Positions 478 to 33,744 of a stretch of 35,160 bases of DNA are shown one piece after another. The stretch lies in IMG/VR virus record IMGVR_UViG_2734482770_000003. One strand, given 5' to 3'. Numbering within the stretch: position 1 is the first letter of the stretch; every line of letters starts with the position of its first letter. The position numbers and the translations under genes were made by a program. This DNA is from a virus. Lineage: Duplodnaviria; Heunggongvirae; Uroviricota; Caudoviricetes. The notes under the pieces are model-generated. The model did no database searches. It was not told where the DNA came from and saw only the letters and a list, made by a program, of their open reading frames with translations.

Positions 478-504
478 AAAAAATAAGCCCGTGTAAGGGA
501 GATT
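478..504. repeat. attL core: 27-bp direct repeat aaaaaataagcccgtgtaagggagatt
   Basis: Exact 27/27 identity with 33628..33654; flanks diverge on both sides; sequence corresponds to the 3' terminator end of cyaR (reverse complement). Confidence 0.85.
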
Positions 505-583: not shown

Positions 584-1597
584 TTACTCTACTGTGGACA
601 CTGTGTGGACACTCTCGGCCTCAGTACCACCTCTTAGCGGATTAAGAGAAATGGCGTCCTGAAGGTACTCTGGCGCAAAATGAGCGTAAACCATAGTTTG
701 CTCAATCCGCGTGTGACCTAGTATCCGTTGTAGCGTGATAATACTTCCTCCATTAATCATGAAATGAGTGGCAAAGCTGTGCCTTAGTGCATGTGTGGCT
801 TGCCCCATTGGCAAATCCGGTTTTATTGCTTTCATTGTTCGTCTGAAGCGAGGGTAATCAGCATCAGGGAATAAAAAACCTCGTTTGTTATCCGCGATCA
901 TTTTGGCAACAGCCTCTGAGATCGGGACGGTGCGTGGTTTGTTTGTTTTCGTTTTAACAAACGTGACGCGGTTATGGATGATATTTTCTGCTTTCAAACG
1001 AGCTGCTTCTCCCCAACGTGCTCCAGTACTCAGGCAAAGAATCGCAATCTTTTTGTTGTCGCCGTCAAGAGCAGCAAGCAGTAAGGCAATTTCTTCCTGC
1101 GTGAGATAGCCTGTGTCTGGTTTTTCCTCCTTAAGCCTTTTTGTCCCTCTGATAGGGTGCTCACCAAAGAATAACTCCGCTTCAATCAGGGCTGTAAACA
1201 TGCCGCTAATACATGTTAAATCACGATTGATACTCGAAGGTTTAATACCCTGACTTCTTCGGGTGGCGCAGTACTGGCTGATAAGCGATTTCGTAATTTG
1301 AAATGCGCATGGGTCATTCGTTATTTTTGTGAAGATTTCAATTTTTCCAAGATTAGATTTCCCATGCTCTTCGTGTTTACCCTTTAAATCCCACCAGATC
1401 TGTGTCAGCTCCGACAGACGTCGCTTGTCTGTTGGTTTTGATAGCCATTCTTTATTGTGGTGGTTGTACAACGTGTATTTCTCGAAAGCGACAGCTTCGC
1501 TTTTCTTATCAAACTTCCTACGGATGCGTTTTCCATTACGTCCAGTAGGGCGGATGTCCACTTCATATCGACCATCATCGAGTTTTTTGATTGCCAT
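584..1597 (-). CDS. int: Tyrosine-type site-specific integrase (P2 Int-like)
   Basis: 337 aa, same length as P2 Int; C-terminal HxxR...Y catalytic region (HALRHSFATHF ... VYAHFAP); adjacent to attL; SD-like ggaggg upstream of start. Confidence 0.9.
   Translation of the reverse strand: MAIKKLDDGRYEVDIRPTGRNGKRIRRKFDKKSEAVAFEKYTLYNHHNKEWLSKPTDKRRLSELTQIWWDLKGKHEEHGKSNLGKIEIFTKITNDPCAFQITKSLISQYCATRRSQGIKPSSINRDLTCISGMFTALIEAELFFGEHPIRGTKRLKEEKPDTGYLTQEEIALLLAALDGDNKKIAILCLSTGARWGEAARLKAENIIHNRVTFVKTKTNKPRTVPISEAVAKMIADNKRGFLFPDADYPRFRRTMKAIKPDLPMGQATHALRHSFATHFMINGGSIITLQRILGHTRIEQTMVYAHFAPEYLQDAISLNPLRGGTEAESVHTVSTVE
593..613. repeat. Tandem tgtggacac repeats (11-bp period) in the P' arm; putative arm-type Int binding sites
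   Basis: tgtggacac at 593..601 and 604..612; a related pair tgtggtca/tgtggacg at 33569..33576 and 33580..33587 in the P arm with the same 11-bp period. Confidence 0.35.
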
Positions 1598-1712
1598 CAG
1601 AAAACCCTCCGAGTGGTGTGTTTTTTTGCGACTACTAATCGCTTTTTTCGTGGTGGCTGAAATTTAGCCACCAATAGTAGGCACTTGTGATGAATATATT
1701 CACGATGAATTG

Positions 1713-2012
1713 TTAACCAGTCTTTTGACCGGAGTGGGGCGACGTTGTTTCGTTTTGCCCAAAGTGTGCGAGAGCGGGCGCAATTTGCCCGGACTCAGGA
1801 GCGATCTGATTGGTCATGAACCATAAAGTGTATTTGGTGAATTGTGGGGTCTGCAGGATGTTCATCATGACATCTGTTGGAGGTGTTGAACGACCACTTT
1901 CATAGTAACTCAGCGTGCCATACGGAACCCCTGTTAAATCAGCAAGTTGTTGTCTGCTCAAATACTCTGATTTTCGCATTAAGACTATCTTCTCGCTTAT
2001 CGTGTTTGACAT
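1713..2012 (-). CDS. C: Immunity repressor (P2 C-like)
   Basis: 99 aa (same as P2 C); helix-turn-helix-like N-terminus (LSRQQLADLTGVPYGTLSYYESG); divergent from cox, next to int. Confidence 0.85.
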   Translation of the reverse strand: MSNTISEKIVLMRKSEYLSRQQLADLTGVPYGTLSYYESGRSTPPTDVMMNILQTPQFTKYTLWFMTNQIAPESGQIAPALAHFGQNETTSPHSGQKTG

Positions 2013-2126
2013 GGTGTTTAGATCTCAATAGTATTTAGTTTAGATGTAGATTGTTTAGTGCTTGGATGTGGGCACTAAAAGGCATTATAAGACATTAAAC
2101 GCAATTCATGAGGGCTAGAGGACGAC
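2004..2126. promoter_or_regulatory. Immunity switch region: rightward early promoter (Pe-like) with direct-repeat operator half-sites; leftward C promoter likely in same interval
   Basis: -35 ttgaca 2006..2011, 17-bp spacer, -10 tagtat 2029..2034; direct repeats gtttagat at 2016..2023 and 2038..2045 (22 bp apart) flank the -10, as for P2 O1/O2; a tataat on the opposite strand at 2084..2089. Confidence 0.5.
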
Positions 2127-2402
2127 ATGAGCAAGCAAGTAACACTCATGACTGATGCGATTCCTTATCAGGAGTTCGCAAAACTAATAGGAAAATCGAC
2201 AGGAGCGGTTCGTCGGATGATCGATAAAGGAAAGCTGCCTGTAATTGATATGACCGATCCACAATCAGCTTCAGGTCGTGCAGGTGAATATTGGGTATAC
2301 CTTCCGGCATGGAATAACGGACTAAAACTGGCTTATGAAAGCCGCCCTAAAGAGATTCGTGACGGCTGGTTGATGTGGTTAGGTCTCGGTGAACCACGTT
2401 AA
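2127..2402 (+). CDS. cox: Cox (excisionase/transcriptional regulator of lysogenic promoter)
   Basis: 91 aa (same as P2 Cox); first gene of rightward early operon, divergent from C. Confidence 0.85.
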   Translation: MSKQVTLMTDAIPYQEFAKLIGKSTGAVRRMIDKGKLPVIDMTDPQSASGRAGEYWVYLPAWNNGLKLAYESRPKEIRDGWLMWLGLGEPR

Positions 2403-2412
2403 GGAGAACCGT

Positions 2413-2583
2413 ATGAATGAGCCTCGTTGTATTGCTCAGTTACTGCGTAACGAAAGCCCCAGGGCGATTGACTTCACCATCACCCACGGTAAGGGGCGTA
2501 AGGGAATCATTATCCGCACCAAAAAACAGAGTCCGTTAAAAAAGGCTCTGACCTTTCTGAAAAGCCGGAGGGTATGGAAATGA
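2413..2583 (+). CDS. Small hypothetical early protein (P2 orf78 position)
   Basis: ATG at 2413 preceded by aaggag (2401..2406); ORF track shows a longer GTG-initiated form from 2389. Confidence 0.5.
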   Translation: MNEPRCIAQLLRNESPRAIDFTITHGKGRKGIIIRTKKQSPLKKALTFLKSRRVWK

Positions 2584-3080
2584 CAGTGATGACGCTCAAT
2601 CTCGTTGAAAAACAGCCAGCAGCTATGCGCCGGATAATTGGTAAGCATCTTGCTGTTCCTCGCTGGCAGGAGACATGTGATTATTATAATCAGATGATGG
2701 AGCGCGAACGGCTAACGGTTTGCTTTCATGCGCAGTTAAAACAGCGTCACGCAACGATGCGTTTTGAAGAAATGAACGACGTCGAACGTGAACGGCTGGT
2801 TTGTGCAATTGATGAATTGCGTGGTGCATTCTCAAAACGCCGTCAGGTTGGCGCAAGTGAGTATGCATATATTAGTTTTTTAACAGTCAGTCAGCGTCGC
2901 ACTTTATTTATGCATGCCGGATTGACTGAAAAAGAATTCAACCAGCCATACTGGCGAATTAATGAAGAGTCATGTTACTGGCGTGATGCTTTATTCCGTG
3001 CATTACGTGAATTATTCAGCCTGTTTGAGTATGCACCGACAATTCTGACGTCGGTAAAACCAGAGCAATATCTGCATTAA
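2580..3080 (+). CDS. B: Replication protein B (helicase-loader-like)
   Basis: 166 aa from ATG at 2580 (P2 B is 166 aa); position between cox and A; ggag at 2567..2570. Confidence 0.7.
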   Translation: MTVMTLNLVEKQPAAMRRIIGKHLAVPRWQETCDYYNQMMERERLTVCFHAQLKQRHATMRFEEMNDVERERLVCAIDELRGAFSKRRQVGASEYAYISFLTVSQRRTLFMHAGLTEKEFNQPYWRINEESCYWRDALFRALRELFSLFEYAPTILTSVKPEQYLH

Positions 3081-3143
3081 GTAATTAACCAGAGTTTTTA
3101 ACGCACTTAATTGTGCGGGGCTTCTTTTTGCCTGGAGAAAGTC

Positions 3144-3368
3144 ATGCATACAGTTTCTGAAAATCAGTGCGGTAAATACGCATTACTGCTGCAACAGGCC
3201 AGAACCGAAGCACAGGCCGACGCTGCGACGCGCTTTTCTTCTCATCTTGACGCCATGATTCGCCATATCACAAAGGCGGAGTTATCCCGCGTGGAGATAG
3301 TCGAGCTGCTCAGTCAGGAGTCGGAAAAATTTCACAATATCGGATTGTCTCGCGGGGAGGTGCTTTGA
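3144..3368 (+). CDS. Hypothetical early protein (P2 orf80 position)
   Basis: ATG at 3144 preceded by ggagaaag; translationally coupled gene string. Confidence 0.5.
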
Positions 3369-3670
3369 TGTCCTGTTCTCATTCAGTTGTATTACTGAAT
3401 AACGCCTTAAAAATCGCCGTTATGAAAAATGGCGATTTGTCTCTTATTCAACTTTGTCTTGATAAAGAAAAACGCGACATAACTGAATCTGTTATCGCGA
3501 TTTATCAGAATGAATTAAACCTCCTGTCTGATGTGGTCAATTTACTTGTTAAACGCGCTGTATTTCATAAGCAAATTTCATCCGTGGATGAACTGACAAA
3601 ATTAACGACAGAAATCGCCAGCTATTGCGCTGATGAATTTAAGAAGCTGAACGACAAAAGGAGCTGGTAA
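3365..3670 (+). CDS. Hypothetical early protein (P2 orf81 position)
   Basis: 101-aa ORF, start overlaps preceding stop (ATGA-type coupling). Confidence 0.5.
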
Positions 3671-3894
3671 TGCCGGACAACATAGATTTTATTCAGGAAC
3701 AACAGGCTGAATTACTGGAGCGCCAGATTAACGCGGCAAGGGTAAAACATTGCGGTGTTTCTGCGCTGGTTTGCGAAGAGTGTGACGCGCCAATACCTGC
3801 TGCCCGTCGTGCAGCTTATCCGTCAGCCACGCGTTGTGTTTCCTGCCAGTCAGTCTTTGAAGCAAAAAACAAGCATTACCGGAGAATGGCATGA
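3670..3894 (+). CDS. TraR/DksA-family C4-type zinc-finger protein (P2 orf82 position)
   Basis: 74 aa with CxxC...CxxC (CEECDAP ... CVSCQ), typical of TraR/DksA-like phage proteins. Confidence 0.7.
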   Translation: MPDNIDFIQEQQAELLERQINAARVKHCGVSALVCEECDAPIPAARRAAYPSATRCVSCQSVFEAKNKHYRRMA

Positions 3895-4166
3895 GTATTC
3901 GTATCGAAATTGGCGAACGTTATGTCGTTACCAGTGACAGCTTTCAGTTTATTCTCCACGAGAAAAAGAGAGCGGAAAGCGGTAAAAACGCCGGTCAGGA
4001 ATGGCTGGCGGTGGTTGGTTATTACCCGAAATTAAGCCAGCTCGTTTCCGGCCTGATGCATCACGATATTCTGACCGGAAGCGCAAAGTCTTTTGCTGAT
4101 TTAAACGCGCAGGTTGAGCAACTCAGCAAGCGTTGTTCTGAGGCTTTTGGCTCATATGGCCGTTAA
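3891..4166 (+). CDS. Hypothetical early protein (P2 orf83 position)
   Basis: 91-aa ORF; stop overlaps A start region. Confidence 0.5.
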   Translation: MSIRIEIGERYVVTSDSFQFILHEKKRAESGKNAGQEWLAVVGYYPKLSQLVSGLMHHDILTGSAKSFADLNAQVEQLSKRCSEAFGSYGR

Positions 4167-6279
4167 AGCCTCCGGGCGTTTTGTCCCTCCGTCAGCATTT
4201 GCCGCAGGCACCGGTAAGGCGTTTACCGGTGCTTATGCATGGAACGCGCCACGCGAGGCTGTCGGGCGCGAAAGACCTCTTACACGTGACGAGATGCGTC
4301 AGGTGCAAGGTGTTTTATCCACGATTAACCGCCTGCCTTACTTTTTGCGCTCGCTGTTTACTTCACGCTATGACTACATCCGGCGCAATAAAAGCCCGGT
4401 GCACGGGTTTTATTTCCTCACATCCACTTTTCAGCGTCGTTTATGGCCGCGCATTGAGCGTGTGAATCAGCGCCATGAAATGAACACCGACGCGTCGTTA
4501 CTGTTTCTGGCAGAGCGTGACCACTATGCGCGCCTGCCGGGAATGAATGACAAGGAGCTGAAAAAGTTTGCTGCCCGTATCTCATCGCAGCTTTTCATGA
4601 TGTATGAGGAACTCAGCGATGCCTGGGTGGATGCACATGGCGAAAAAGAATCGCTGTTTACGGATGAGGCGCAGGCTCACCTCTATGGTCATGTTGCTGG
4701 CGCTGCACGTGCTTTCAATATTTCCCCTCTCTACTGGAACAAATACCGTAAAGGGCAGATGACCACGAGGCAGGCATATTCTGCCATTGCCCGTCTGTTT
4801 AACGATGAGTGGTGGACTCATCAGCTTAAAGGCCAGCGTATGCGCTGGCATGAGGCGTTACTGATAGCTGTCGGGGAGGTCAATAAAGACCGTTCACCTT
4901 ATGCCAGTAAACATGCCATTCGTGATGTGCGTGCGCGCCGCCAGGCAAATCTGGAATTTCTTAAATCGTGTGACCTTGAAAACAGGGAAACCGGCGAGCG
5001 CATCGACCTTATCAGTAAGGTGATGGGCAGTATTTCTAATCCTGAAATTCGCCGGATGGAGCTGATGAACACCATTGCCGGTATTGAGCGTTACGCCGCC
5101 TCAGAGGGTGATGTGGGGATGTTTATCACGCTGACCGCGCCGTCAAAGTATCACCCAACACGTCAGGTCAGAAAAGGCGAAAGCAAAACCGTCCAGCTAA
5201 ATCACGGCTGGAATGATGAGGCATTTAATCCAAAGGATGCGCAGCGTTATCTCTGCCGTATCTGGAGCCTGATGCGCACGGCATTCAAGGATAATGATTT
5301 ACAGGCCTACGGTTTGCGTGTTGTTGAACCACACCACGACGGAACGCCGCACTGGCATATGATGCTTTTTTGTAATCCACGCCAGCGTAACCAGATTATT
5401 GAAATCATGCGTCGCTATGCGCTCAAAGAGGATGGCGACGAAAGAGGAGCCGCGCGAAACCGTTTTCAGGCAAAACACCTTAACCGGGGCGGTGCTGCGG
5501 GATATATCGCGAAATACATCTCAAAAAACATCGACGGCTATGCACTGGATGGTCAGCTCGATAATGATACCGGTAGGCCGCTGAAAGACACAGCTGCGGC
5601 TGTTACCGCATGGGCGTCAACGTGGCGCATTCCGCAATTTAAAACGGTTGGTCTGCCGACAATGGGGGCTTACCGTGAACTACGCAAATTGCCTCGTGGC
5701 GTCAGCATTGCTGATGAGTTTGACGAGCGCGTCGAGGCTGCACGCGCCGCTGCAGACAGTGGTGATTTTGCGTTGTATATCAGCGCGCAGGGCGGGGCAA
5801 ATGTCCCGCGCGATTGTCAGACTGTCAGGGTCGCCCGTAGCCCGTCGGATGACGTTAACGAGTACGAGGAAGAAGTCGAGAGAGTGGTCGGCATTTACGC
5901 GCCGCATCTCGGCGCGCGTCATATTCATATCACCAGAACGACGGACTGGCGCATTGTTCCGAAAGTGCCGGTCGTTGAGCCTTTGACTTTAAAAAGCGGC
6001 ATCGCCGCGCCTCGGAGTCCTGTCAATAACTGTGGAAAGCTCACCTGTGGCGATACTTCGTTACCGGCTCCCACACCTTCTGAGCACGCCGCAGCAGTGC
6101 TTAATCTGGTAGATGACGGTGTTATCGAATGGAATGACCCGGAGGTCTTGAAAGTGCTTAATCTGGCATTGAAAATAGAAGCATCACGTAAATGTACAAA
6201 CAAAGGAGACACACGAGCAGGCATAGTTGGCGAGTCAACCGCGATTTTCAATGTACAGGATGCTGATAATCAACAATGA
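4156..6279 (+). CDS. A: Replication initiation endonuclease gpA (rolling-circle nickase)
   Basis: Starts MAVKASGRFVPPSAFAAG as I recall for P2 gpA; contains HxH-like TPHWHMMLF and tyrosine-motif region GYIAKYISKNIDGY; ATG at 4156 in frame with the longer track ORF from 4114. Confidence 0.9.
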   Translation: MAVKASGRFVPPSAFAAGTGKAFTGAYAWNAPREAVGRERPLTRDEMRQVQGVLSTINRLPYFLRSLFTSRYDYIRRNKSPVHGFYFLTSTFQRRLWPRIERVNQRHEMNTDASLLFLAERDHYARLPGMNDKELKKFAARISSQLFMMYEELSDAWVDAHGEKESLFTDEAQAHLYGHVAGAARAFNISPLYWNKYRKGQMTTRQAYSAIARLFNDEWWTHQLKGQRMRWHEALLIAVGEVNKDRSPYASKHAIRDVRARRQANLEFLKSCDLENRETGERIDLISKVMGSISNPEIRRMELMNTIAGIERYAASEGDVGMFITLTAPSKYHPTRQVRKGESKTVQLNHGWNDEAFNPKDAQRYLCRIWSLMRTAFKDNDLQAYGLRVVEPHHDGTPHWHMMLFCNPRQRNQIIEIMRRYALKEDGDERGAARNRFQAKHLNRGGAAGYIAKYISKNIDGYALDGQLDNDTGRPLKDTAAAVTAWASTWRIPQFKTVGLPTMGAYRELRKLPRGVSIADEFDERVEAARAAADSGDFALYISAQGGANVPRDCQTVRVARSPSDDVNEYEEEVERVVGIYAPHLGARHIHITRTTDWRIVPKVPVVEPLTLKSGIAAPRSPVNNCGKLTCGDTSLPAPTPSEHAAAVLNLVDDGVIEWNDPEVLKVLNLALKIEASRKCTNKGDTRAGIVGESTAIFNVQDADNQQ

Positions 6280-6394
6280 TAGCTATTGTGACTATGCTAA
6301 CCCTATGAATCTATTGTGTGATTATGAGTAATGACTTTTTCTAATATTTGATTTTTAATGTAGTAACTTAGCTAATTTTAAAATTTGTAAAAGG

Positions 6395-7648
6395 ATGTTT
6401 ATGTCGATTTATCAAGGTGGTAACAAGTTAAATGAGGATGATTTTCGTTCTCACGTTTATTCCTTGTGTCAATTAGATAATGTTGGCGTTCTGTTAGGTG
6501 CTGGTGCTTCTGTCGGTTGTGGTGGGAAAACGATGAAAGATGTATGGAAATCGTTTAAGCAAAACTACCCTGAGCTTTTGGGAGCACTTATTGATAAATA
6601 TCTTCTGGTTTCGCAAATTGATTCTGATAACAATTTGGTCAATGTTGAACTTTTGATAGATGAAGCAACTAAATTTCTTTCTGTAGCTAAAACTAGACGA
6701 TGTGAAGATGAAGAGGAGGAATTCAGGAAGATATTAAGTTCATTATATAAAGAGGTTACGAAGGCTGCATTATTAACAGGAGAACAGTTTAGAGAGAAAA
6801 ATCAGGGTAAAAAAGATGCGTTTAAATATCACAAAGAGTTAATTTCAAAATTAATTTCAAATAGACAGCCCGGTCAGTCGGCTCCGGCAATTTTTACAAC
6901 AAATTATGATTTGGCCTTAGAGTGGGCTGCAGAAGATTTAGGAATACAGTTGTTTAATGGTTTTTCTGGGCTACATACACGGCAGTTTTATCCCCAGAAT
7001 TTTGATTTGGCTTTCAGAAATGTAAATGCGAAGGGCGAAGCAAGATTCGGACATTATCATGCGTATCTCTATAAATTACATGGCTCACTTACGTGGTATC
7101 AAAATGATAGCTTGACTGTTAACGAAGTTAGTGCATCTCAAGCATATGATGAATATATTAATGACATAATCAATAAAGATGACTTTTATCGCGGTCAACA
7201 TTTGATTTATCCAGGGGCGAATAAATATAGCCATACAATCGGCTTCGTTTATGGAGAGATGTTTAGACGTTTTGGGGAGTTTATTTCGAAACCTCAAACA
7301 GCGTTGTTCATAAATGGGTTTGGTTTCGGTGATTATCATATAAATAGAATAATATTAGGCGCGTTACTGAATCCATCTTTCCATGTTGTTATATATTATC
7401 CTGAATTGAAAGAAGCAATTACCAAAGTAAGTAAGGGTGGCGGTTCGGAAGCTGAGAAAGCTATTGTTACTTTAAAAAATATGGCTTTCAATCAAGTAAC
7501 TGTAGTTGGGGGAGGAAGCAAGGCATATTTTAATAGTTTCGTAGAACATCTACCATACCCTGTGCTCTTTCCACGAGATAATATTGTTGATGAGTTGGTT
7601 GAAGCAATTGCTAATCTTTCTAAAGGAGAAGGTAATGTCCCTTTTTAA
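6395..7648 (+). CDS. SIR2-like (sirtuin-fold) NADase-type defence protein
   Basis: Gly-rich NAD-binding-like LLGAGASVGCGG near N-terminus, TTNYD motif, catalytic-His-like KLHGS; AT-rich cargo at P2 tin/old position; alternative start at 6401. Confidence 0.8.
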   Translation: MFMSIYQGGNKLNEDDFRSHVYSLCQLDNVGVLLGAGASVGCGGKTMKDVWKSFKQNYPELLGALIDKYLLVSQIDSDNNLVNVELLIDEATKFLSVAKTRRCEDEEEEFRKILSSLYKEVTKAALLTGEQFREKNQGKKDAFKYHKELISKLISNRQPGQSAPAIFTTNYDLALEWAAEDLGIQLFNGFSGLHTRQFYPQNFDLAFRNVNAKGEARFGHYHAYLYKLHGSLTWYQNDSLTVNEVSASQAYDEYINDIINKDDFYRGQHLIYPGANKYSHTIGFVYGEMFRRFGEFISKPQTALFINGFGFGDYHINRIILGALLNPSFHVVIYYPELKEAITKVSKGGGSEAEKAIVTLKNMAFNQVTVVGGGSKAYFNSFVEHLPYPVLFPRDNIVDELVEAIANLSKGEGNVPF

Positions 7649-9467
7649 ACTTACTGAAATCTCGGCTATTGGATACGTTGTAGGATTAGAAGGGGAAAGA
7701 ATTAGGATAAACCTGCATGAGGGGTTGCAAGGCAGATTAGCATCGCATAGAAAGGGGGTGAGCTCAGTAACGCAACCAGGAGATCTTATTGGGTTCGATG
7801 CAGGTAATATATTAGTTGTCGCAAGAGTGACAGATATGGCATTTGTTGAAGCGGATAAAGCGCATAAGGCAAATGTAGGCACATCTGATTTAGCTGATAT
7901 ACCTTTAAGACAAATTATCGCCTATGCAATTGGCTTTGTGAAAAGGGAGTTAAATGGTTATGTTTTTATATCAGAAGATTGGCGCTTACCTGCATTGGGT
8001 TCTTCTGCTGTTCCTTTGACTTCAGATTTTTTGAACATCATTTATAGTATTGATAAAGAAGAACTCCCAAAAGCGGTTGAATTAGGTGTGGATTCTCGAA
8101 CTAAAACCGTTAAGATATTTGCAAGTGTTGATAAATTATTGTCGCGACACTTAGCCGTTCTTGGTAGTACAGGATATGGTAAATCAAATTTCAATGCTTT
8201 GTTAACGAGGAAGGTTTCTGAAAAATACCCTAACTCAAGAATAGTTATTTTTGACATAAATGGTGAATACGCGCAAGCTTTTACAGGTATTCCAAATGTA
8301 AAGCACACTATTCTAGGGGAATCCCCAAATGTTGATAGTTTGGAAAAAAATCAGCAAAAGGGTGAGCTATATAGTGAAGAGTATTATTGTTATAAAAAGA
8401 TACCATATCAGGCATTAGGTTTTGCTGGGTTAATTAAATTATTAAGACCAAGTGATAAAACACAATTGCCCGCATTAAGAAATGCATTAAGTGCAATTAA
8501 TCGGACTCATTTTAAAAGCCGTAATATTTACTTGGAAAAAGATGATGGTGAAACTTTTCTTTTGTATGATGATTGTCGTGACACAAATCAAAGTAAATTG
8601 GCTGAGTGGTTGGATTTATTAAGGCGTAGACGTCTTAAAAGAACGAATGTATGGCCGCCGTTTAAAAGTTTAGCGACTTTGGTTGCTGAATTTGGATGTG
8701 TAGCTGCTGACCGTTCTAATGGAAGTAAACGTGACGCGTTTGGTTTTAGTAACGTGTTGCCATTGGTAAAAATCATACAACAACTTGCAGAGGATATAAG
8801 ATTTAAATCTATTGTTAATTTAAATGGAGGGGGTGAGCTAGCAGATGGTGGAACGCATTGGGATAAAGCTATGAGTGATGAAGTTGATTACTTCTTTGGT
8901 AAGGAAAAAGGACAAGAAAATGATTGGAATGTTCATATAGTTAATATGAAAAATTTGGCGCAAGATCATGCTCCAATGTTACTTAGTGCATTGTTGGAGA
9001 TGTTTGCTGAGATACTATTTAGACGTGGGCAGGAACGTTCGTATCCTACGGTACTTTTGTTGGAAGAAGCGCATCATTACCTGCGTGACCCTTATGCTGA
9101 AATTGACTCACAGATTAAAGCATATGAACGACTTGCTAAAGAAGGTAGGAAATTCAAATGCTCTTTAATTGTCAGTACTCAGCGACCCTCAGAGCTTTCT
9201 CCTACTGTTTTGGCAATGTGTTCAAACTGGTTTTCGTTACGTTTGACTAATGAAAGAGATTTACAGGCTCTCAGATATGCAATGGAAAGCGGTAATGAAC
9301 AAATCTTAAAACAAATATCAGGTTTACCAAGAGGTGATGCTGTTGCATTTGGTTCTGCATTTAATTTGCCTGTAAGAATTTCAATTAATCAAGCAAGGCC
9401 AGGGCCAAAATCTTCAGATGCTGTTTTTTCTGAAGAATGGGCTAATTGTACAGAATTACGTTGTTAA
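7635..9467 (+). CDS. HerA-like (FtsK/HerA superfamily) ATPase, partner of SIR2 protein
   Basis: Walker A VLGSTGYGKS, Walker B-like VLLLEEAHHY; ATG at 7635 preceded by aaaggagaagg; 14-nt overlap with upstream SIR2 stop. Confidence 0.8.
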   Translation: MSLFKLTEISAIGYVVGLEGERIRINLHEGLQGRLASHRKGVSSVTQPGDLIGFDAGNILVVARVTDMAFVEADKAHKANVGTSDLADIPLRQIIAYAIGFVKRELNGYVFISEDWRLPALGSSAVPLTSDFLNIIYSIDKEELPKAVELGVDSRTKTVKIFASVDKLLSRHLAVLGSTGYGKSNFNALLTRKVSEKYPNSRIVIFDINGEYAQAFTGIPNVKHTILGESPNVDSLEKNQQKGELYSEEYYCYKKIPYQALGFAGLIKLLRPSDKTQLPALRNALSAINRTHFKSRNIYLEKDDGETFLLYDDCRDTNQSKLAEWLDLLRRRRLKRTNVWPPFKSLATLVAEFGCVAADRSNGSKRDAFGFSNVLPLVKIIQQLAEDIRFKSIVNLNGGGELADGGTHWDKAMSDEVDYFFGKEKGQENDWNVHIVNMKNLAQDHAPMLLSALLEMFAEILFRRGQERSYPTVLLLEEAHHYLRDPYAEIDSQIKAYERLAKEGRKFKCSLIVSTQRPSELSPTVLAMCSNWFSLRLTNERDLQALRYAMESGNEQILKQISGLPRGDAVAFGSAFNLPVRISINQARPGPKSSDAVFSEEWANCTELRC

Positions 9468-9624
9468 TTACCTGATGTACATGGCTAGTGCAAGTTGGTA
9501 GCGCATGTCTATATGCATTTATTTGCATGTGTTTTATTGAGTGAGCGCACAAGCTTGATGACCCGACAGGTATGTATTTAGACTGAATTTACACCTGCAT
9601 TAAAACCGCCCCACGAAGCGGGCG

Positions 9625-9643
9625 GGCGAGGCGGGGAAAGCAC
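9625..9643. other. cos site: 19-nt cohesive-end sequence ggcgaggcggggaaagcac
   Basis: Matches the P2 cohesive end as I recall it; located between the tin/old-position cargo and Q as in P2; flanked by GC-rich inverted repeat 9606..9625. Confidence 0.75.
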
Positions 9644-9779
9644 TGCGCGCTGGCGGTGGTGCTGATTTTATTTTTTTAGCGTCTCAGCGCGTCGTGATGG
9701 CGTTTAGATTGTGCGCCGGGGCGTTAGTGTGTCTGCGGGGTGTTTTGTGCGGTGGTGAGCGTGTGAGGGCGTGATGACG

Positions 9780-9806
9780 GGGTGTAAAAAAGCCGCCCGC
9801 AGGCGG
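9780..9806 (-). terminator. Rho-independent terminator downstream of Q (minus strand)
   Basis: Hairpin gccgcc-tgcg-ggcggc followed by T-run on the minus strand immediately after Q stop. Confidence 0.5.
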
Positions 9807-9812
9807 CGATGT

Positions 9813-10847
9813 TCAGCCGTTGTCAGTGTCCAGTGAGTAGTTTTTAAAGCGGATGACCTCCTGACCGAGCCAGCCGTTTATCTCACGGATCCTGTCCTGT
9901 AACGGGATAAGCTCATTGCGGACAAAGACCTTTGCCACTTTCTCAATATCACCCAGCGACCCGACGTTCTCCGGCTTGCCGCCCATCAACTGAAAGGGGA
10001 TGCGGTGCGCGTCAAGCAGGTCAGCGGCGCTGGCTTTTTTGATATTAAAAAAATCGTCCTTCGTTGCCACTTCACTGAGCGGGATAATTTTAATGCCGTC
10101 GGCTTTCCCCTGCGGGGCATAGAGAAACAGATTTTTAAAGTTGTTGCGGCCTTTCGACTTCACCATGTTTTCGCGAAGCATTTCGATATCGTTGCGATCC
10201 TGCACGGCATCGGTGACGTACATGATGTATCCGGCATGTGCGCCGTTTTCGTAATACTTGCGGCGGAACAGCGTGGCCGACTCATTCAGCCAGGCAGAGT
10301 TAAGGGCGCTGAGATATTCCGGCAGGCCGTACAACTCCTGATTAATATCCGGCTCCAGCAGGTGAAACACGGAGCCGGGCGCGAAGGCTGTCGGCTCGTT
10401 GAAGGACGGCACCCACCAGTAAACATCCTCTTCCACACCACGGCGGGTATATTTTGCCGGTGAGGTTTCCAGTCTGATGACCTTACCGGTGGTGCTGTAA
10501 CGCTTTTCCAGAAACGCATTACCGAACACCAGAAAATCCAGCACAAAGCGGCTGAAATCCTGCTGGGAAAGCCACGGGTGCGGGATAAACGTTGAAGCCA
10601 GAATATTACGTTTGACGTAAATCGGTGAGCTGTGATGCACGGCAGCACGCAGGCTTTTTGCCAGACCGGTAAAGCTGACCGGTGGCTCATACCATCTGCC
10701 GTTACTGATGCATTCGACGTAATCCAGAATGTCACGGCGGTCGAGTACCGGCACTGGCTCACCAAAGGTGAATGCCTCCATTTTCGGGGCGCTGGCGGTC
10801 ATTTTTTTTGCCGCAGGTTGCTGTGTTTTCCCTTTTTTCTTGCTCAT
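9813..10847 (-). CDS. Q: Portal protein gpQ
   Basis: 344 aa (same as P2 Q); start ATG overlaps P stop; first gene after cos on opposite strand. Confidence 0.9.
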   Translation of the reverse strand: MSKKKGKTQQPAAKKMTASAPKMEAFTFGEPVPVLDRRDILDYVECISNGRWYEPPVSFTGLAKSLRAAVHHSSPIYVKRNILASTFIPHPWLSQQDFSRFVLDFLVFGNAFLEKRYSTTGKVIRLETSPAKYTRRGVEEDVYWWVPSFNEPTAFAPGSVFHLLEPDINQELYGLPEYLSALNSAWLNESATLFRRKYYENGAHAGYIMYVTDAVQDRNDIEMLRENMVKSKGRNNFKNLFLYAPQGKADGIKIIPLSEVATKDDFFNIKKASAADLLDAHRIPFQLMGGKPENVGSLGDIEKVAKVFVRNELIPLQDRIREINGWLGQEVIRFKNYSLDTDNG

Positions 10848-18987: not shown

Positions 18988-19017
18988 TTTTATCCAGGCA
19001 GAGGCTGATGCGCAATT

Positions 19018-19052
19018 AAACATTGAGCGGCCATGCTGGTCGCTCAATGTTT
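19018..19052. terminator. Perfect 12-bp-stem hairpin between convergent S and cargo gene (bidirectional terminator candidate)
   Basis: aaacattgagcg / loop gccatgctggt / cgctcaatgttt. Confidence 0.45.
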
Positions 19053-19058
19053 AGAGGT

Positions 19059-19844
19059 TTATGAGTGATTTTTATTTGATGCTTTGTATTCTACAACCTT
19101 CTTATTGGCGTAAAGGAATTTTGTATATGACAGGAATATAACCAGACCTGAAATGAAATAGATGAGGGATATTATTAATAATGCTTTTTTTTGGCTGTTA
19201 TTATCTTTAATCTCCTGACTTAACCATTCCGAGTCCTCCTCGTTTAGCTGTAAGAGCTTATTGCAGGCGATCTCAGGAAGTGTGTCTTTTATAAATACGT
19301 TTCGTAGCCTCTTGCAATCGGCAAGGCTATAAGTTTTATTGAATTCAACTGTTTTATTGTTGAAGGATAAAAGAACTTTGTCACTATAAACATAGTACAT
19401 CATATTTTTATATGGTATGCCTATGGCATCTCTTACTATAGCGGATTGTTTGTTGTGTATATAACATGCGAAGAGAATATAAATAATGCTGGACAGAATT
19501 ACAATTATTGTTTTAATTATGTGTGGTGGTTTTGTTATGTCACCCCAGAAGCGAGTAAGAAAAAAATACGATGTTTTTAGTTTTCCATCAATCAGCCCCT
19601 GCTGTATCATTCTCACATCTTCGATGCCTGATACATTGATTCCGTTAATTATTTTAAATAGTTGAATGTCGCGCCATTTTTTGTCGAGCATTTTTAACTT
19701 TCTGTCTGAATACTCAAAATTGAAATAATGTGCAATAAACCTCATAAGATTACTTTTACCAAAGGTAATAAATGTTAATACTATTAATAAAAATAGATAC
19801 AAAGAGATAAACCACCACGCATTAGTCACATTATCACTGAACAT
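19059..19844 (-). CDS. Unrecognised cargo protein with three predicted transmembrane segments (P2 orf30 position)
   Basis: 261 aa; ATG with gaggag SD; hydrophobic stretches near residues 9-28, 108-128, 221-241; strongly AT-rich, opposite strand to flanking late genes. Confidence 0.6.
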   Translation of the reverse strand: MFSDNVTNAWWFISLYLFLLIVLTFITFGKSNLMRFIAHYFNFEYSDRKLKMLDKKWRDIQLFKIINGINVSGIEDVRMIQQGLIDGKLKTSYFFLTRFWGDITKPPHIIKTIIVILSSIIYILFACYIHNKQSAIVRDAIGIPYKNMMYYVYSDKVLLSFNNKTVEFNKTYSLADCKRLRNVFIKDTLPEIACNKLLQLNEEDSEWLSQEIKDNNSQKKALLIISLIYFISGLVIFLSYTKFLYANKKVVEYKASNKNHS

Positions 19845-19927
19845 TACGCTCTCCTCGAATGTTGTATGGTCGTTCTACAAATGAATCCAGATAGCATAAC
19901 TTTTATATATTGTGCAATCTCACACGC

Positions 19928-20563
19928 ATGAACACTCTCGCAAATATTCAGGAACTCGCGCGCGCACTGCGCAACATGATTCGTACCGGCCTTGTCGTCG
20001 AAACCAACCTTAAAGCCGGTCGCTGCCGTGTGCAGACCGGTGGCATGTGCACCGACTGGCTTCTGTGGCTGACCCATCGTGCCGGACGTTCGCGCACATG
20101 GTGGGCACCTTCCGTGGGGGAACAGGTGCTGATTCTGGCTGTGGGCGGTGAACTCGACACGGCGTTCGTTCTGCCGGGGATTTATTCCGGCGATAACCCC
20201 GCGCCGTCTGCGTCGGCGGATGCCCTGCATATCCGTTTCCCTGACGGGGCGGTGATTGAGTATGAACCCGAAACCAGTGCACTCACGGCAAGCGGAATTA
20301 AAACGGCCAGCGTGACGGCTTCTGATTCTGTTACTGCCACGGTGCCGGTGGTCATGGTGAAAGCATCAACCCGCGTCACCCTGGACACACCGGAGGTGGT
20401 CTGCACCAACAGGCTGATTACCGGCACGCTGGAAGTGCAGAAGGGCGGGACGATGCGCGGCAACATTGAACACACCGGCGGTGAACTCTCATCAAACGGT
20501 AAGGTACTGCATACCCATAAACACCCCGGCGACAGCGGCGGCACAACCGGGAGTCCTCTATGA
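19928..20563 (+). CDS. V: Baseplate spike/assembly protein gpV
   Basis: 211 aa from ATG at 19928 (P2 V is 211 aa); track ORF starts at a TTG at 19910. Confidence 0.85.
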   Translation: MNTLANIQELARALRNMIRTGLVVETNLKAGRCRVQTGGMCTDWLLWLTHRAGRSRTWWAPSVGEQVLILAVGGELDTAFVLPGIYSGDNPAPSASADALHIRFPDGAVIEYEPETSALTASGIKTASVTASDSVTATVPVVMVKASTRVTLDTPEVVCTNRLITGTLEVQKGGTMRGNIEHTGGELSSNGKVLHTHKHPGDSGGTTGSPL

Positions 20564-25203: not shown

Positions 25204-25567
25204 GTTGTATGAGTTCTGGTGTGAGCTTACACATCTATGGCACAGAGTAAAGCCTAATCTGACAGTTCGCTCTGTGCCAGAAACAGACGTCACTTATATA
25301 TTTCTGTATTAATCAATGAGGAAAGATTCAATTCTCTATAATGGAGGTTGCGTCCACTGTTTTCTCTAAGCAGACCAAGTTCCCTTAACGAAAAATTTAG
25401 TGTCAGAAACTAATATTGACAAAGAGGCAATGTTATATAGTATTAGTTTGATAACTAAAAATATAAGCCTGATTATCTCAAGCTTATATAGGTGATAAAG
25501 TTTCTAACTTAATTTGATTATAGAAGATACATTTCTTAATTATGACGCATTGATAATGGATTCAACT

Positions 25568-26593
25568 TCATTCAATAATGTCTGGTAGAACATTAAATCC
25601 AGTTGGTCGAAAAAAGGATAATCTTTGCTGATGAGAAACTAAATCTATCTTCACAATGTGATGATGGTTTTTTTTGATTTTTCTAGAGTACAATGAGTAA
25701 AAAAGATTTTCTGTGTTAATTTCCACAATGATTCCAGACATATCTAAGTCATAGCATTTTGCTAATGCTTTCAATTTTGGTGATATTTTGCTCTCTTTAA
25801 ACTTTTCATTATATTCCGGTTGAAAATATCTTATCAAAGCAGCTTCGATTATATTAATGGCTTGATTTTTGTTTGGGTGATTTTTTAATGCAAACTTAAA
25901 TCGCTTGTCATCGCTATCCGTATCATTAATTAATCCAGACCTCCCATCTAGAGATGAGAATACTTGTTCATGCTCAAAGGCATACATAAAAAGCATGATC
26001 TCTTGATCTGGCTTGTTATAAAGCGTTTGCGCCAATATTTTTTGTAATTTTGAATGACTCCTTAAACGTTCAACTGCATTCCTGCTACCATTTTTACCTA
26101 CGGCTTGTCCAATATAAAGAACTTCATATGAGGACAGATCTGAATAGTAACCTAATTTACTTGAATATAAGGTGGCAATGAAAGATGCAGAGATGTAAGT
26201 TACCTCCTCCCCTTCATTATTTATACTAATAACTTCTCTGAATGGATAGTTACATATTATATCAGTTGCATCGTCTTCTAATATCCAGTTGTGTTCAAAA
26301 TGGAACTTGCTTTCTTTACCATCTATTTTGTACCCTATCTCTCCTGAGAGAATGTTTTTCTCATGATTAATTGTATTATCAATAAAATAAAAGCTTGGGC
26401 GAGCGCATATAAAGTATATATGGCATTTTGAAAGTTGTTTTTCTTGTTCTAAATTAATTTTTGCATCAGACGTTAGTTGCTGAGCAGTAAGCATCGCTGT
26501 AAAACTATTTAAGTATCCAAAAGCAAATTCGTGTATGAATTTTCTTTTCACTCGAAATATCCTCACTAGAAATGAATAATATTGGTTTTTCAT
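25568..26593 (-). CDS. Unrecognised cargo protein at the Z/fun position (candidate defence/exclusion gene)
   Basis: 341 aa, no TM segments evident, AT-rich, opposite strand to tail genes, flanked by AT-rich non-coding DNA on both sides. Confidence 0.6.
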   Translation of the reverse strand: MKNQYYSFLVRIFRVKRKFIHEFAFGYLNSFTAMLTAQQLTSDAKINLEQEKQLSKCHIYFICARPSFYFIDNTINHEKNILSGEIGYKIDGKESKFHFEHNWILEDDATDIICNYPFREVISINNEGEEVTYISASFIATLYSSKLGYYSDLSSYEVLYIGQAVGKNGSRNAVERLRSHSKLQKILAQTLYNKPDQEIMLFMYAFEHEQVFSSLDGRSGLINDTDSDDKRFKFALKNHPNKNQAINIIEAALIRYFQPEYNEKFKESKISPKLKALAKCYDLDMSGIIVEINTENLFYSLYSRKIKKNHHHIVKIDLVSHQQRLSFFRPTGFNVLPDIIE

Positions 26594-26922
26594 GATAATA
26601 CTCTATTGATCCTAGACTTACCATTTAAAAAACGAACTGACATGCTCCCGTTGATTAATAAGCTGTAAGGTTAGCAATTCTTTTGGCGTTGAGAACAACT
26701 GCGAACTTCCGTTCCTTGCTCAAAGCAGACTGTCAGATTTGATAGCGTTTGGGCTATGTAAGTAGCCAGTTGGAGAATGAGTGAGTGCAAATCAGGACTG
26801 GCGGGCGAATTGCCCGCATTTTCTTTATCTGTTGTTTCATCCACTGACCAGCCTGGTCAAATAGCGTCTCATGCACTGCCCAACAGAAAATAGTTGCACC
26901 CATTAACCACGGAGTTAAACGG

Positions 26923-28113
26923 ATGAGTGACTATCATCACGGCGTGCAGGTGCTGGAGATTAACGACGGCACCCGCGTCATTTCCACCGTATCCACTGCC
27001 ATTGTCGGCATGGTCTGCACGGCCAGCGATGCGGATGCGGAAACCTTCCCCCTCAATAAACCGGTGCTGATTACCAATGTGCAGAGCGCAATTGCAAAGG
27101 CCGGTAAAAAAGGCACGCTGGCGGCGTCGTTACAGGCCATCGCTGACCAGTCAAAACCGGTCACCGTTGTCGTCCGTGTGGAAGACGGCACCGGCGAAGA
27201 CGAAGAAACGAAACTCGCGCAGACCGTTTCCAATATCATCGGCACCACCGACGAAAACGGCCAGTACACCGGACTGAAAGCCCTGCTGGCGGCAGAATCG
27301 GTAACCGGTGTTAAACCGCGTATTCTCGGTGTGCCGGGACTGGACACCAAAGAGGTGGCCGTCGCACTGGCATCAGTCTGTCAGAAGCTGCGCGCTTTCG
27401 GGTATATCAGCGCATGGGGCTGTAAAACCATTTCTGAGGTGAAAGCCTACCGCCAGAATTTCAGCCAGCGTGAGTTGATGGTCATCTGGCCTGATTTCCT
27501 CGCATGGGATACGGTCACCAGTACCACCGCCACCGCGTATGCCACCGCCCGTGCGCTGGGTCTGCGTGCCAAAATCGACCAGGAGCAGGGCTGGCATAAA
27601 ACGCTGTCCAACGTCGGGGTAAACGGTGTTACCGGCATCAGTGCCTCTGTATTCTGGGATTTGCAGGAGTCCGGCACCGATGCTGACCTGTTGAACGAGT
27701 CAGGTGTCACAACGCTGATTCGCCGTGACGGTTTCCGCTTCTGGGGTAACCGTACCTGCTCTGATGACCCGCTGTTCCTCTTTGAAAACTACACCCGCAC
27801 CGCGCAGGTGCTGGCCGACACGATGGCTGAGGCGCACATGTGGGCGGTGGACAAGCCCATCACCGCAACGCTGATTCGCGACATCGTTGACGGTATCAAT
27901 GCCAAATTCCGTGAGCTGAAAACAAACGGCTATATCGTGGATGCGACCTGCTGGTTCAGCGAAGAATCCAACGATGCGGAAACCCTCAAGGCCGGAAAAC
28001 TGTATATCGACTACGACTATACACCGGTGCCTCCTCTCGAAAACCTGACCCTGCGCCAGCGTATTACCGATAAATACCTGGCAAATCTGGTTACTTCGGT
28101 TAACAGCAATTAA
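26923..28113 (+). CDS. FI: Tail sheath protein gpFI
   Basis: 396 aa (same as P2 FI); ggag SD. Confidence 0.9.
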   Translation: MSDYHHGVQVLEINDGTRVISTVSTAIVGMVCTASDADAETFPLNKPVLITNVQSAIAKAGKKGTLAASLQAIADQSKPVTVVVRVEDGTGEDEETKLAQTVSNIIGTTDENGQYTGLKALLAAESVTGVKPRILGVPGLDTKEVAVALASVCQKLRAFGYISAWGCKTISEVKAYRQNFSQRELMVIWPDFLAWDTVTSTTATAYATARALGLRAKIDQEQGWHKTLSNVGVNGVTGISASVFWDLQESGTDADLLNESGVTTLIRRDGFRFWGNRTCSDDPLFLFENYTRTAQVLADTMAEAHMWAVDKPITATLIRDIVDGINAKFRELKTNGYIVDATCWFSEESNDAETLKAGKLYIDYDYTPVPPLENLTLRQRITDKYLANLVTSVNSN

Positions 28114-33627: not shown

Positions 33628-33654
33628 AAAAAATAAGCCCGTGTAAGGGAGATT
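33628..33654. repeat. attR core: 27-bp direct repeat identical to attL core
   Basis: Exact match to 478..504; forms the 3' end of cyaR on the minus strand. Confidence 0.85.
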
Positions 33655-33714
33655 ACACAGGCTAAGGAGGTGGTTCCTGGTACAGCTAGCATTTTATGGG
33701 TTATGTTTTTCAGC
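33628..33714 (-). ncRNA. cyaR: CyaR (RyeE) Hfq-dependent sRNA
   Basis: Minus-strand sequence reads gctgaaaaacataacccataaaatgctagctgtaccaggaaccacctccttagcctgtgtaatctcccttacacgggcttatttttt, matching CyaR as I recall it, including the CACCUCCUU anti-SD region and terminator hairpin with U-tail. Confidence 0.8.
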
Positions 33715-33744
33715 GAAACGGATGATAACCTTAATAAATGCAGC

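What the first reader, a model, noticed from the sequence alone, without database searches (positions are those of the whole stretch)
6280..9624. SIR2-HerA type two-gene defence module at the tin/old position
Between replication gene A and cos, where P2 carries tin and old, there is an AT-rich two-gene operon with overlapping stop/start. Gene 1 has sirtuin-like motifs (GAGxS-type Gly-rich loop, TTNYD, KLHGS). Gene 2 has HerA/FtsK-type Walker A (GSTGYGKS) and Walker B (LLLEEAHH). This matches the described SIR2-HerA anti-phage system (NAD+ depletion on infection). It is a known family, but its placement shows which phage slot is used and makes it a defence island carried by a temperate phage.
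Basis: partly seen in the sequence, partly recalled or inferred. Interest (0 to 1): 0.65.

Follow-up and report, generated by a model that had tools for sequence, protein, structure and literature searches.

The report
Known SIR2-HerA defence in P2 prophage

Summary
Window 6401-7648 (+) encodes a 415-aa SIR2 protein and 7635-9467 (+) a 610-aa HerA ATPase. The two genes overlap by 14 nt and lie in a 36.6% GC segment within a 52% GC P2-like prophage. The segment sits between replication gene A and the exact P2 cos 19-mer at 9625-9643.

The interpretation also holds. SIR2 is 415/415 identical and HerA 609/610 identical (N239 here, K in the structure) to the proteins of PDB 8J4U/8SU9. [quoted passage not shown]

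The placement is not new. Rousset et al. 2022 defined the gpA-gpQ hotspot of P2-like phages. Their Table S5B lists "SIR2 | DUF87 = SIR2 + HerA" as system 14, with 188 occurrences. NCTC 11129 itself carries the cassette in this slot.

Three corrections to the finding:
- The SIR2 start is 6401.
- The foreign DNA begins at about 6150, inside gene A, and replaces gpA's conserved C-terminal ~90 aa.
- The operon runs co-directionally with A, opposite to old/tin in P2.

Verdict: already known, low interest. The side observations (clipped gpA, and a GIY-YIG-like orphan gene at the Z/fun slot) are more novel than the finding.

The parts
6150..9593 (.). Foreign AT-rich cargo segment (~3.44 kb) that replaces the P2 region holding the A 3' end, orf91, tin and old
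   Evidence: Alignment with NC_001895: homology is lost at ~6150 and regained at ~9594. GC is 36.6% vs 52.0% elsewhere. P2-like phage records match only 9592-9700 of the 6200-9700 query.
6401..7648 (+). SIR2 NADase gene (415 aa), identical to EcSir2 of PDB 8j4u/8su9/8sxx. Predicted catalytic Asn168 (TTNYD) and His227 (KLHGS).
   Evidence: 415/415 identical. PADLOC 4e-190. NF042942 507 bits, cut-off 500. N168/H227 align with SaSir2 N226/H287 in 8yhx, and H287A abolishes NADase per PMC11514289.
7635..9467 (+). HerA ATPase/helicase gene (610 aa), 609/610 identical to EcHerA of PDB 8j4u (N239 here, K in the structure and in NCTC 11129). Walker A GSTGYGKS 177-184, Walker B LLLEEAHH 474-481.
   Evidence: PADLOC HerA 2e-277. 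Pfam DUF87 2.5e-20.
7635..7648 (+). 14-nt overlap of the HerA start with the SIR2 stop (ATGTCCCTTTTTAA), with AAGGAG at 7623-7628. Implies translational coupling.
   Evidence: The same layout is annotated in RefSeq.
6391..6395 (+). Shine-Dalgarno-like AAGGA, 5 nt upstream of ATG 6401. Favours 6401 over 6395 as the SIR2 start.
   Evidence: The PDB and RefSeq proteins start MSIYQ.
9625..9643 (+). P2-type cos cohesive-end 19-mer
   Evidence: Exact match. Identical to the annotated cosR of NC_001895.
4156..6279 (+). Replication gene A (Phage_GPA). Its last ~42 codons (from ~6150) are cargo-derived and unrelated to the conserved ~90-aa C-terminal tail of gpA in P2, P2_AC1 and 12W.
   Evidence: Pfam PF05840 1.3e-121. 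Alignments. RefSeq labels it 'replication endonuclease, incomplete, missing C-terminus'.
9813..10847 (-). Portal gene Q, the right-hand border of the hotspot
478..504 (+). attL copy of the 27-bp att core AAAAAATAAGCCCGTGTAAGGGAGATT. The second copy is at 33628-33654. Together they delimit the ~33.2-kb prophage between yegR and yegQ.
   Evidence: Flanking genes.

Best explanation
The segment is the canonical E. coli Sir2-HerA ('Nezha') abortive-infection system. It is carried as a two-gene, translationally coupled operon in the cos-proximal gpA-gpQ cargo hotspot of a P2-like prophage integrated between yegR and yegQ.

Mechanism, taken from published work on the same proteins:
- SIR2 forms a dodecameric ring that docks on a HerA hexamer, and this assembly switches on the SIR2 NADase.
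- The complex also has ATPase, helicase and nuclease activities.
- Physiological ATP keeps these activities inhibited.
- During infection ATP falls, the check is released, and NAD+ is hydrolysed to ADP-ribose and nicotinamide. The infected cell arrests, so the incoming phage (lambda and T7 were tested) cannot multiply.

Shown here: sequence identity to the characterised proteins, intact reading frames and catalytic motifs, the coupling signals, the foreign base composition, and the exact position and junctions. Inferred: that the operon is expressed from the lysogen and is active in this strain. The phage-derived trigger for this subtype is still undefined in the literature.
For: Identity to solved structures: SIR2 415/415 and HerA 609/610 against 8j4u and 8su9. 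[quoted passage not shown] EcSir2-HerA comes from E. coli NCTC 11129 and protects against lambda. 0.5 mM ATP inhibits the NADase (PMC11514289). EcHerA binds an EcSIR2 dodecamer (PMC11472057). EcSir2-HerA depletes NAD+ and blocks T7 and lambda (PMC13464706). Family profiles agree. The NCTC 11129 chromosome has the same A-SIR2-HerA-Q layout. Eight of eight contexts shown for the identical SIR2 in public assemblies are this slot. 46 of 5426 complete E. coli genomes carry this subfamily, and the three checked (one per allele lineage) are in the same slot and orientation. Rousset 2022 Table S5B lists SIR2|DUF87 as system 14 of the P2 hotspot. The catalytic Asn/His and the Walker A/B motifs are conserved in all three allelic lineages.
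Against: No activity was measured here. No convincing sigma-70 promoter was found in the 121-nt gap upstream of SIR2. Promoter-like hits in 5900-9850 number 11 against 11.5 expected from shuffles, so expression in the lysogen is assumed, not shown. The HerA score against NCBIfam NF042943 (710 bits) is below that model's 800-bit cut-off. HerA differs from the characterised protein at one residue, N239 instead of K. The carrying prophage may be replication-defective, which affects mobility but not the defence function.
Confidence: 0.95

Rival explanations
1. The cassette is intact but silent or ineffective in this context. It has no promoter of its own and is transcribed only by read-through from the repressed early operon (Pe-cox-B-A). 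It would therefore give the lysogen no standing protection and be expressed only during prophage derepression.
For: The operon is co-directional with and immediately downstream of gene A, unlike old/tin in P2, which have their own promoter on the other strand. No above-chance promoter match was found upstream. No intrinsic terminator-like site on the + strand was found between A and SIR2.
Against: Rousset et al. showed that genetic systems at this hotspot can provide resistance in their natural lysogen context (one P2-like phage, AC1). The 121-nt AT-rich leader and partly conserved upstream blocks in three allelic lineages leave room for a non-consensus promoter. The arrangement is conserved at >=99.5% identity in 20 complete genomes, which suggests selection on the cassette.
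Confidence: 0.04
2. The HerA/SIR2 pair works for the phage itself, as a HerA-type DNA translocase for repair, replication or packaging with a sirtuin regulator, rather than as a defence system.
For: HerA shows weak profile similarity to FtsK/TrwB/terminase-type ATPases and to DSB-repair HerA.
Against: DSB-repair HerA models score 95 bits against cut-offs of 800-970, and there is no NurA or Mre11/Rad50 neighbour. P2 and other viable P2-likes lack the genes altogether. The composition is foreign. The identical proteins are experimentally anti-phage.
Confidence: 0.01

Closest known systems
E. coli NCTC 11129 Sir2-HerA / 'Nezha' (Gao et al. 2020; Tang et al. 2023; Shen et al. 2023; PDB 8J4U, 8SU9, 8SUB, 8SUW, 8SXX, 8UAE, 8UAF)
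   Same: SIR2 is 100% identical and HerA 99.8% identical. Gene order, the 14-nt overlap and the flanks (truncated A, cos, portal) are the same.
   Different: One HerA residue (N239 vs K239). 99.7% nucleotide identity over 3.5 kb. Otherwise nothing.
P2 gpA-gpQ cos-proximal defence hotspot (Rousset et al. 2022, PMC9122126), system 14 'SIR2 | DUF87'
   Same: Same slot, same two-gene architecture, annotated there as SIR2 + HerA (Gao 2020) with 188 occurrences.
   Different: The representative HerA printed in that table is a diverged allele of the same subfamily. Alleles of this kind in strains H6 and Combat13F7 are 81-82% (SIR2) and 76-77% (HerA) identical to the window's proteins.
P2 old and tin (lysogenic-conversion exclusion genes of phage P2)
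   Same: They occupy the same interval between A and cosR and serve the same role, protecting the lysogen from other phages.
   Different: Unrelated proteins (OLD ATPase-nuclease; Tin). They are transcribed on the opposite strand from a promoter near cos, and in P2 gene A and orf91 are intact.
Paenibacillus sp. 453MF and S. aureus SIR2-HerA; E. coli Sir2-HerA types I-III
   Same: SIR2 NADase plus HerA hexameric ATPase forming a supramolecular complex, with NAD+ depletion and abortive infection.
   Different: Only 28% and 23% identity to the Paenibacillus proteins. SIR2 oligomer state differs (12-mer in E. coli, 14-mer in Paenibacillus, dimer in S. aureus alone). Types I-III share 13-22% identity with Nezha, and type III uses a nickase and is triggered by phage SSB.

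Membership tests
SIR2-HerA (Nezha) anti-phage system | Adjacent, co-oriented SIR2-domain gene and HerA-type ATPase gene forming one operon | tested here: met
   6401-7648 and 7635-9467, + strand, 14-nt overlap. No other credible ORF lies in the cargo.
SIR2-HerA (Nezha) anti-phage system | SIR2 protein matches system-specific SIR2 profiles | tested here: met
   PADLOC PDLC02186 E=4.3e-190, full length. NCBIfam NF042942 SIR2_antiphage 507.2 bits, cut-off 500. Pfam SIR2_2 40.3 bits, cut-off 24.5.
SIR2-HerA (Nezha) anti-phage system | HerA protein matches system-specific HerA profiles | tested here: met
   PADLOC PDLC02185 E=1.9e-277 over 7-605 of 610. Pfam DUF87 74 bits, cut-off 23.2.
SIR2-HerA (Nezha) anti-phage system | HerA reaches the curated cut-off of NCBIfam equivalog NF042943 (HerA_antiphage) | tested here: inconclusive
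   710.3 bits against a cut-off of 800. It is the best model and covers the full length. The experimentally characterised EcHerA is 99.8% identical and would also fall short, so this reflects the model's cut-off, not the protein. RefSeq accordingly names it only 'ATP-binding protein'.
SIR2-HerA (Nezha) anti-phage system | Catalytic Asn/His dyad in SIR2; Walker A Lys and Walker B acidic residues in HerA | tested here: met
   N168 and H227 align with SaSir2 N226 and H287. GSTGYGKS 177-184 and LLLEEAHH 474-481 are present.
SIR2-HerA (Nezha) anti-phage system | Near-identity to an experimentally validated member | tested here: met
   415/415 and 609/610 to PDB 8j4u chains A and M.
SIR2-HerA (Nezha) anti-phage system | Phage resistance with infection-dependent NAD+ depletion | not testable with these tools
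   Published for the same proteins. Not measured for this strain.
P2-like gpA-gpQ defence hotspot cargo | Lies between replication gene A and portal gene Q, next to cos, flanked by P2-homologous DNA, in a P2-like (pro)phage | tested here: met
   A 4156-6279, cos 9625-9643, Q 9813-10847. P2 homology on both sides. Full P2 gene order and att repeats.
HerA-NurA DNA double-strand-break repair module | HerA equivalog score and a NurA nuclease partner | tested here: not met
   NF040819 95.5 bits against 970, NF040937 93.5 against 800. No NurA-like ORF is adjacent.

The most novel reading that the evidence does not exclude
Acquisition of the cassette clipped the conserved ~90-aa C-terminal tail of replication protein gpA. 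The tail is lost in two of three allelic lineages, and all three lineages have different left junctions. Nezha-carrying P2-like prophages may therefore be systematically replication-crippled. This could be because a lytic cycle of the carrier would itself trip the NAD+-depleting system, or simply because domestication fixes the defence cassette in the chromosome. In that case the 'phage-borne' defence would really be a grounded one.
Probability: 0.1. Interest if true: 0.4.

Novelty: already known. Interest (0 to 1): 0.1.

Why it matters
It matters little as a discovery. The system, its structure, its mechanism and its residence in the P2 gpA-gpQ hotspot are all published, and the type system studied in the literature (E. 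coli NCTC 11129) sits in this very slot. The value here is confirmatory annotation:
- The RefSeq label 'ATP-binding protein' for the HerA partner should read anti-phage HerA.
- The cargo's left junction lies inside gene A.
- This prophage carries at least two further AT-rich cargo slots with uncharacterised genes.

Tried and rejected
1. Megablast of 6200-9700 against 50,697 phage records found no isolated phage carrying the cassette; only the cos-proximal 9592-9700 matched. This is not informative. About 1-1.6% of P2-like loci carry the subfamily (46 of 2937 places; 188 of 18,150). About one hit would therefore be expected among the ~71 P2-like records.

2. The sigma-70 promoter and terminator scan gave no above-chance promoter upstream of SIR2 (11 found against 11.5 expected). 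It found no + strand terminator-like site between A and SIR2, and none in the interval between HerA and cos. A hairpin followed by a U-run at ~9501-9537 folds no better than shuffles, z=-0.16. Promoter and terminator remain unassigned.

3. I searched for extra small genes or RNAs in the cargo. There were only short chance ORFs and no Rfam family or tRNA in the cassette.

4. Direct and inverted repeats that might mark a transposon or integron-type insertion were absent. The one exception is a 14-nt exact repeat at the left junction, so insertion looks like recombinational replacement.

5. The primary Mol Cell papers (Tang 2023; Shen 2023, PMC11418745) are not held. Mechanism statements therefore rest on open-access papers that summarise them.

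6. The single-sequence AlphaFold run of the Z/fun-slot ORF was useless, pLDDT 34.6. It was repeated with a 51-sequence alignment.

7. HerA as a repair or packaging ATPase was rejected.
Full report
**Observation**

The window carries two co-oriented + strand ORFs between replication gene A (ORF ending at 6279) and the portal gene Q (9813-10847, - strand).

- The first ORF runs 6395/6401-7648 and the second 7584/7635-9467.
- The biologically sensible starts are ATG 6401 (AAGGA 5 nt upstream) and ATG 7635 (AAGGAG 6 nt upstream). These give proteins of 415 and 610 aa.
- The two genes overlap by 14 nt, ATGTCCCTTTTTAA.
- The region is compositionally foreign. GC is 36.6% over 6150-9593 against 52.0% for the rest of the window. 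Third-position GC is 0.27 and 0.25 against 0.55 in gene A.
- The exact P2 cohesive-end 19-mer GGCGAGGCGGGGAAAGCAC sits at 9625-9643. It is identical to the annotated cosR of phage P2. The finding's end coordinate, 9624, is therefore the base before cos.

**What it is**

Family profiles are unambiguous.

- Pfam: SIR2_2 and DUF87 ('Helicase HerA, central domain').
- PADLOC: SIR2 PDLC02186 at 4e-190 and HerA PDLC02185 at 2e-277, both over the full length.
- NCBIfam: SIR2_antiphage NF042942 at 507 bits, above its 500-bit cut-off. HerA_antiphage NF042943 is the best HerA model at 710 bits, below its 800-bit cut-off.

The decisive result is the comparison with solved structures.

- The SIR2 protein is 415/415 identical to chain A of PDB 8j4u (also 8su9, 8sub, 8suw, 8sxx, 8uae, 8uaf).
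- The HerA protein is 609/610 identical to chain M of 8j4u. The single difference is N239 here and K in the structure.
- PMC13434337 identifies 8J4U as the 'Sir2-HerA/Nezha' system of E. coli.
- PMC11514289 states that EcSir2-HerA comes from E. coli NCTC 11129 and protects against lambda.
- The NCTC 11129 chromosome is in the E. coli collection. It matches the window at 99.7% over 3.5 kb and shows the same layout: truncated replication endonuclease, SIR2, 'ATP-binding protein', portal.

The window therefore contains the type example of this defence system with one amino-acid change.

**Context**

The window is a complete-looking P2-like prophage.

- It is delimited by 27-bp att core repeats at 478-504 and 33628-33654 and lies between yegR and yegQ.
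- Gene order is int, C, cox, B, orf80-83, A, [cargo], cos, Q, P, O, N, M, L, X, lysis genes, R, S, V, W, J, I, H, G, FI, FII, E, T, U, D, ogr.
- The two segments compared (6200-9700 and 25250-26950) are 100% identical to E. coli O121 strain 201805972.

Alignment with P2 (NC_001895) defines the cargo.

- Homology stops at about 6150, inside the 3' end of gene A, and resumes at about 9594, 31 bp before cos.
- The ~3.44-kb cargo replaces the P2 interval that holds the end of A, orf91, tin and old.
- In P2, old and tin are transcribed towards A from a promoter near cos. Here the operon runs in the same direction as A.

**Distribution**

- 20 of 5426 complete E. coli genomes carry the cassette at >=99.5% identity.
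- A further 26 carry alleles at ~73.5% nucleotide identity. These are 81-82% (SIR2) and 76-77% (HerA) identical at protein level, with all motifs conserved.
- The two diverged alleles inspected (strains H6 and Combat13F7) sit in the same A-to-cos slot in the same orientation. They are in P2-like prophages, one at yegQ and one next to pflA.
- The identical SIR2 sequence is indexed in 1239 blocks of the large assembly collection. All eight contexts displayed are this slot.

**How it works**

This section is taken from the literature on the same proteins and was not measured here.

- EcSIR2 forms a dodecamer that binds an EcHerA hexamer through a C-terminal SIR2 extension and the HerA N-terminus (PMC11472057).
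- Complex formation activates the SIR2 NADase. The complex also has ATPase, helicase and nuclease activities.
- ATP at sub-physiological concentration (0.5 mM) inhibits the NADase (PMC11514289; PMC13434337).
- In infected cells ATP falls, the check is released and NAD+ collapses, giving abortive infection.
- EcSir2-HerA blocks T7 and lambda and depletes NAD+ in vivo. Phages can counter it by rebuilding NAD+ (PMC13464706).
- By alignment with S. aureus Sir2 (8yhx), the catalytic dyad here is N168/H227. In that protein N226 and H287 are the conserved dyad and H287A abolishes activity.
- The phage trigger for the Nezha subtype is still described as undefined.

What I infer rather than show is that the operon is expressed in the lysogen. 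The consensus scan finds no above-chance promoter upstream.

**Comparison with what is known, and novelty**

Rousset et al. 2022 defined the region between gpA and gpQ of P2-like phages as a hotspot of anti-phage systems, with 1,650 gene arrangements in 18,150 loci. Their supplementary table of P2-hotspot systems lists 'SIR2 | DUF87' as system 14, with 188 occurrences, annotated 'SIR2 + HerA (Gao et al., 2020)'. So the system, its mechanism, its structure and its placement are all already described. Novelty is 'already known' and interest is low.

**Rivals**

- *A silent cassette dependent on read-through from the repressed early operon.* This is not excluded by sequence alone, since the operon is co-directional with A and no promoter was found. 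It is unlikely because the cassette is conserved at >=99.5% identity in 20 complete genomes, and because Rousset et al. showed, for one P2-like phage (AC1), that hotspot cargo can protect in its native lysogen context.
- *A housekeeping or repair role for HerA.* This is rejected. Repair-type HerA models score ~95 bits against cut-offs of 800-970, there is no NurA partner, and viable P2-like phages lack the genes.

**Things seen in passing**

1. *Clipped gpA.* The cargo's left junction removes the C-terminal ~90 aa of gpA. That tail is conserved in P2 and in the viable isolates P2_AC1 and 12W. Here 42 unrelated residues replace it, and RefSeq flags the gene as a pseudogene. The three allelic lineages have three different left junctions. 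H6 keeps a near-full-length A (770 aa), while Combat13F7 has a 706-aa A truncated at a different point. A 2026 survey notes that the replication gene is the core gene most often pseudogenised in defective P2 and P4 elements. Whether this prophage can replicate is open.

2. *14-nt repeat.* An exact direct repeat, AGTGCTTAATCTGG, lies at 6096-6109 and 6153-6166 and brackets the left breakpoint.

3. *Z/fun-slot gene.* A second AT-rich islet at the P2 Z/fun position holds a 327-aa minus-strand gene (25568-26551).
   - It has no hit at E<=0.001 in Pfam or PADLOC and none at E<=0.01 in NCBIfam. Its only strong family match is PHROG 15714, of unknown function.
   - It has no match in the phage records, and the segment is present in only 6 of 5426 complete E. 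coli genomes.
   - It belongs to a family with 298 hits at E<=0.001 across Gammaproteobacteria. Invariant residues include Y145-x-G147 (VLYIGQA), R161, H165, E235 and N247.
   - Homologues in Pseudomonas and Serratia sit beside AAA_13 or AAA_15/21 ATPases, DUF2971 and HipA in small variable islets.
   - I read it as a GIY-YIG-like nuclease and a candidate single-gene defence or exclusion factor. It is untested.

4. *orf30-slot gene.* A third AT-rich islet (19059-19844, - strand) encodes a member of PHROG 2407, a family of hypothetical proteins found in 21 P2-like phage records.

5. *CyaR.* The CyaR/RyeE sRNA gene (33631-33716, - strand) overlaps the right att core.

6. *Annotation gap.* The NCBIfam HerA_antiphage cut-off excludes the experimentally characterised EcHerA, which explains the uninformative RefSeq product name.

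Noticed in passing
window 4156-6279 (junction at ~6150): Replication gene A loses homology to P2 gpA at ~6150. The ~90-aa C-terminal tail conserved in P2, P2_AC1 and 12W is replaced by 42 unrelated residues encoded by the cargo, and RefSeq flags the identical gene as a pseudogene 'missing C-terminus'. The prophage may be replication-defective.
   Followed up: partly
L007 (E. coli H6) 1128-6549; L008 (E. coli Combat13F7) 3672-9043: Two further allelic lineages of the same SIR2-HerA subfamily (81-82% and 76-77% aa identity) occupy the same A-to-cos slot in the same orientation. Their left junctions differ: A is 770 aa in H6 and 706 aa in Combat13F7. This points to repeated cassette swapping that nibbles the 3' end of A.
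   Followed up: partly
window 6096-6109 and 6153-6166: An exact 14-nt direct repeat, AGTGCTTAATCTGG, brackets the left homology breakpoint between P2-like DNA and the cargo. It may be a micro-homology trace of the recombination that installed the cassette, or chance.
   Followed up: no
[not shown]
   Followed up: partly
window 19059-19844 (- strand), AT-rich islet 19000-20000: A 261-aa hypothetical gene lies between S and V, at the P2 orf30 position. It has no Pfam, PADLOC, NCBIfam or PDB match and belongs to PHROG 2407 (unknown function). It is present in 21 P2-like phage records at 60-98% identity.
   Followed up: partly
window 478-504, 33628-33654 and 33631-33716: 27-bp att core direct repeats (AAAAAATAAGCCCGTGTAAGGGAGATT) delimit the prophage. 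The right copy overlaps the CyaR/RyeE sRNA gene (Rfam RF00112, 100.7 bits, - strand), so the prophage is integrated at the end of cyaR between yegR and yegQ.
   Followed up: partly
window 7635-9467: Annotation gap. NCBIfam HerA_antiphage NF042943 scores 710 bits, below its 800-bit cut-off, for a protein 99.8% identical to the structurally characterised EcHerA. RefSeq therefore names it only 'ATP-binding protein'.
   Followed up: yes
L001 (E. coli CP66-6_Sichuan) 36155-37806: In another strain carrying the 100%-identical cassette, the prophage has an internal deletion that fuses a truncated tail-fibre gene to a truncated D gene. The defence cassette therefore persists in an overtly defective prophage.
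   Followed up: no
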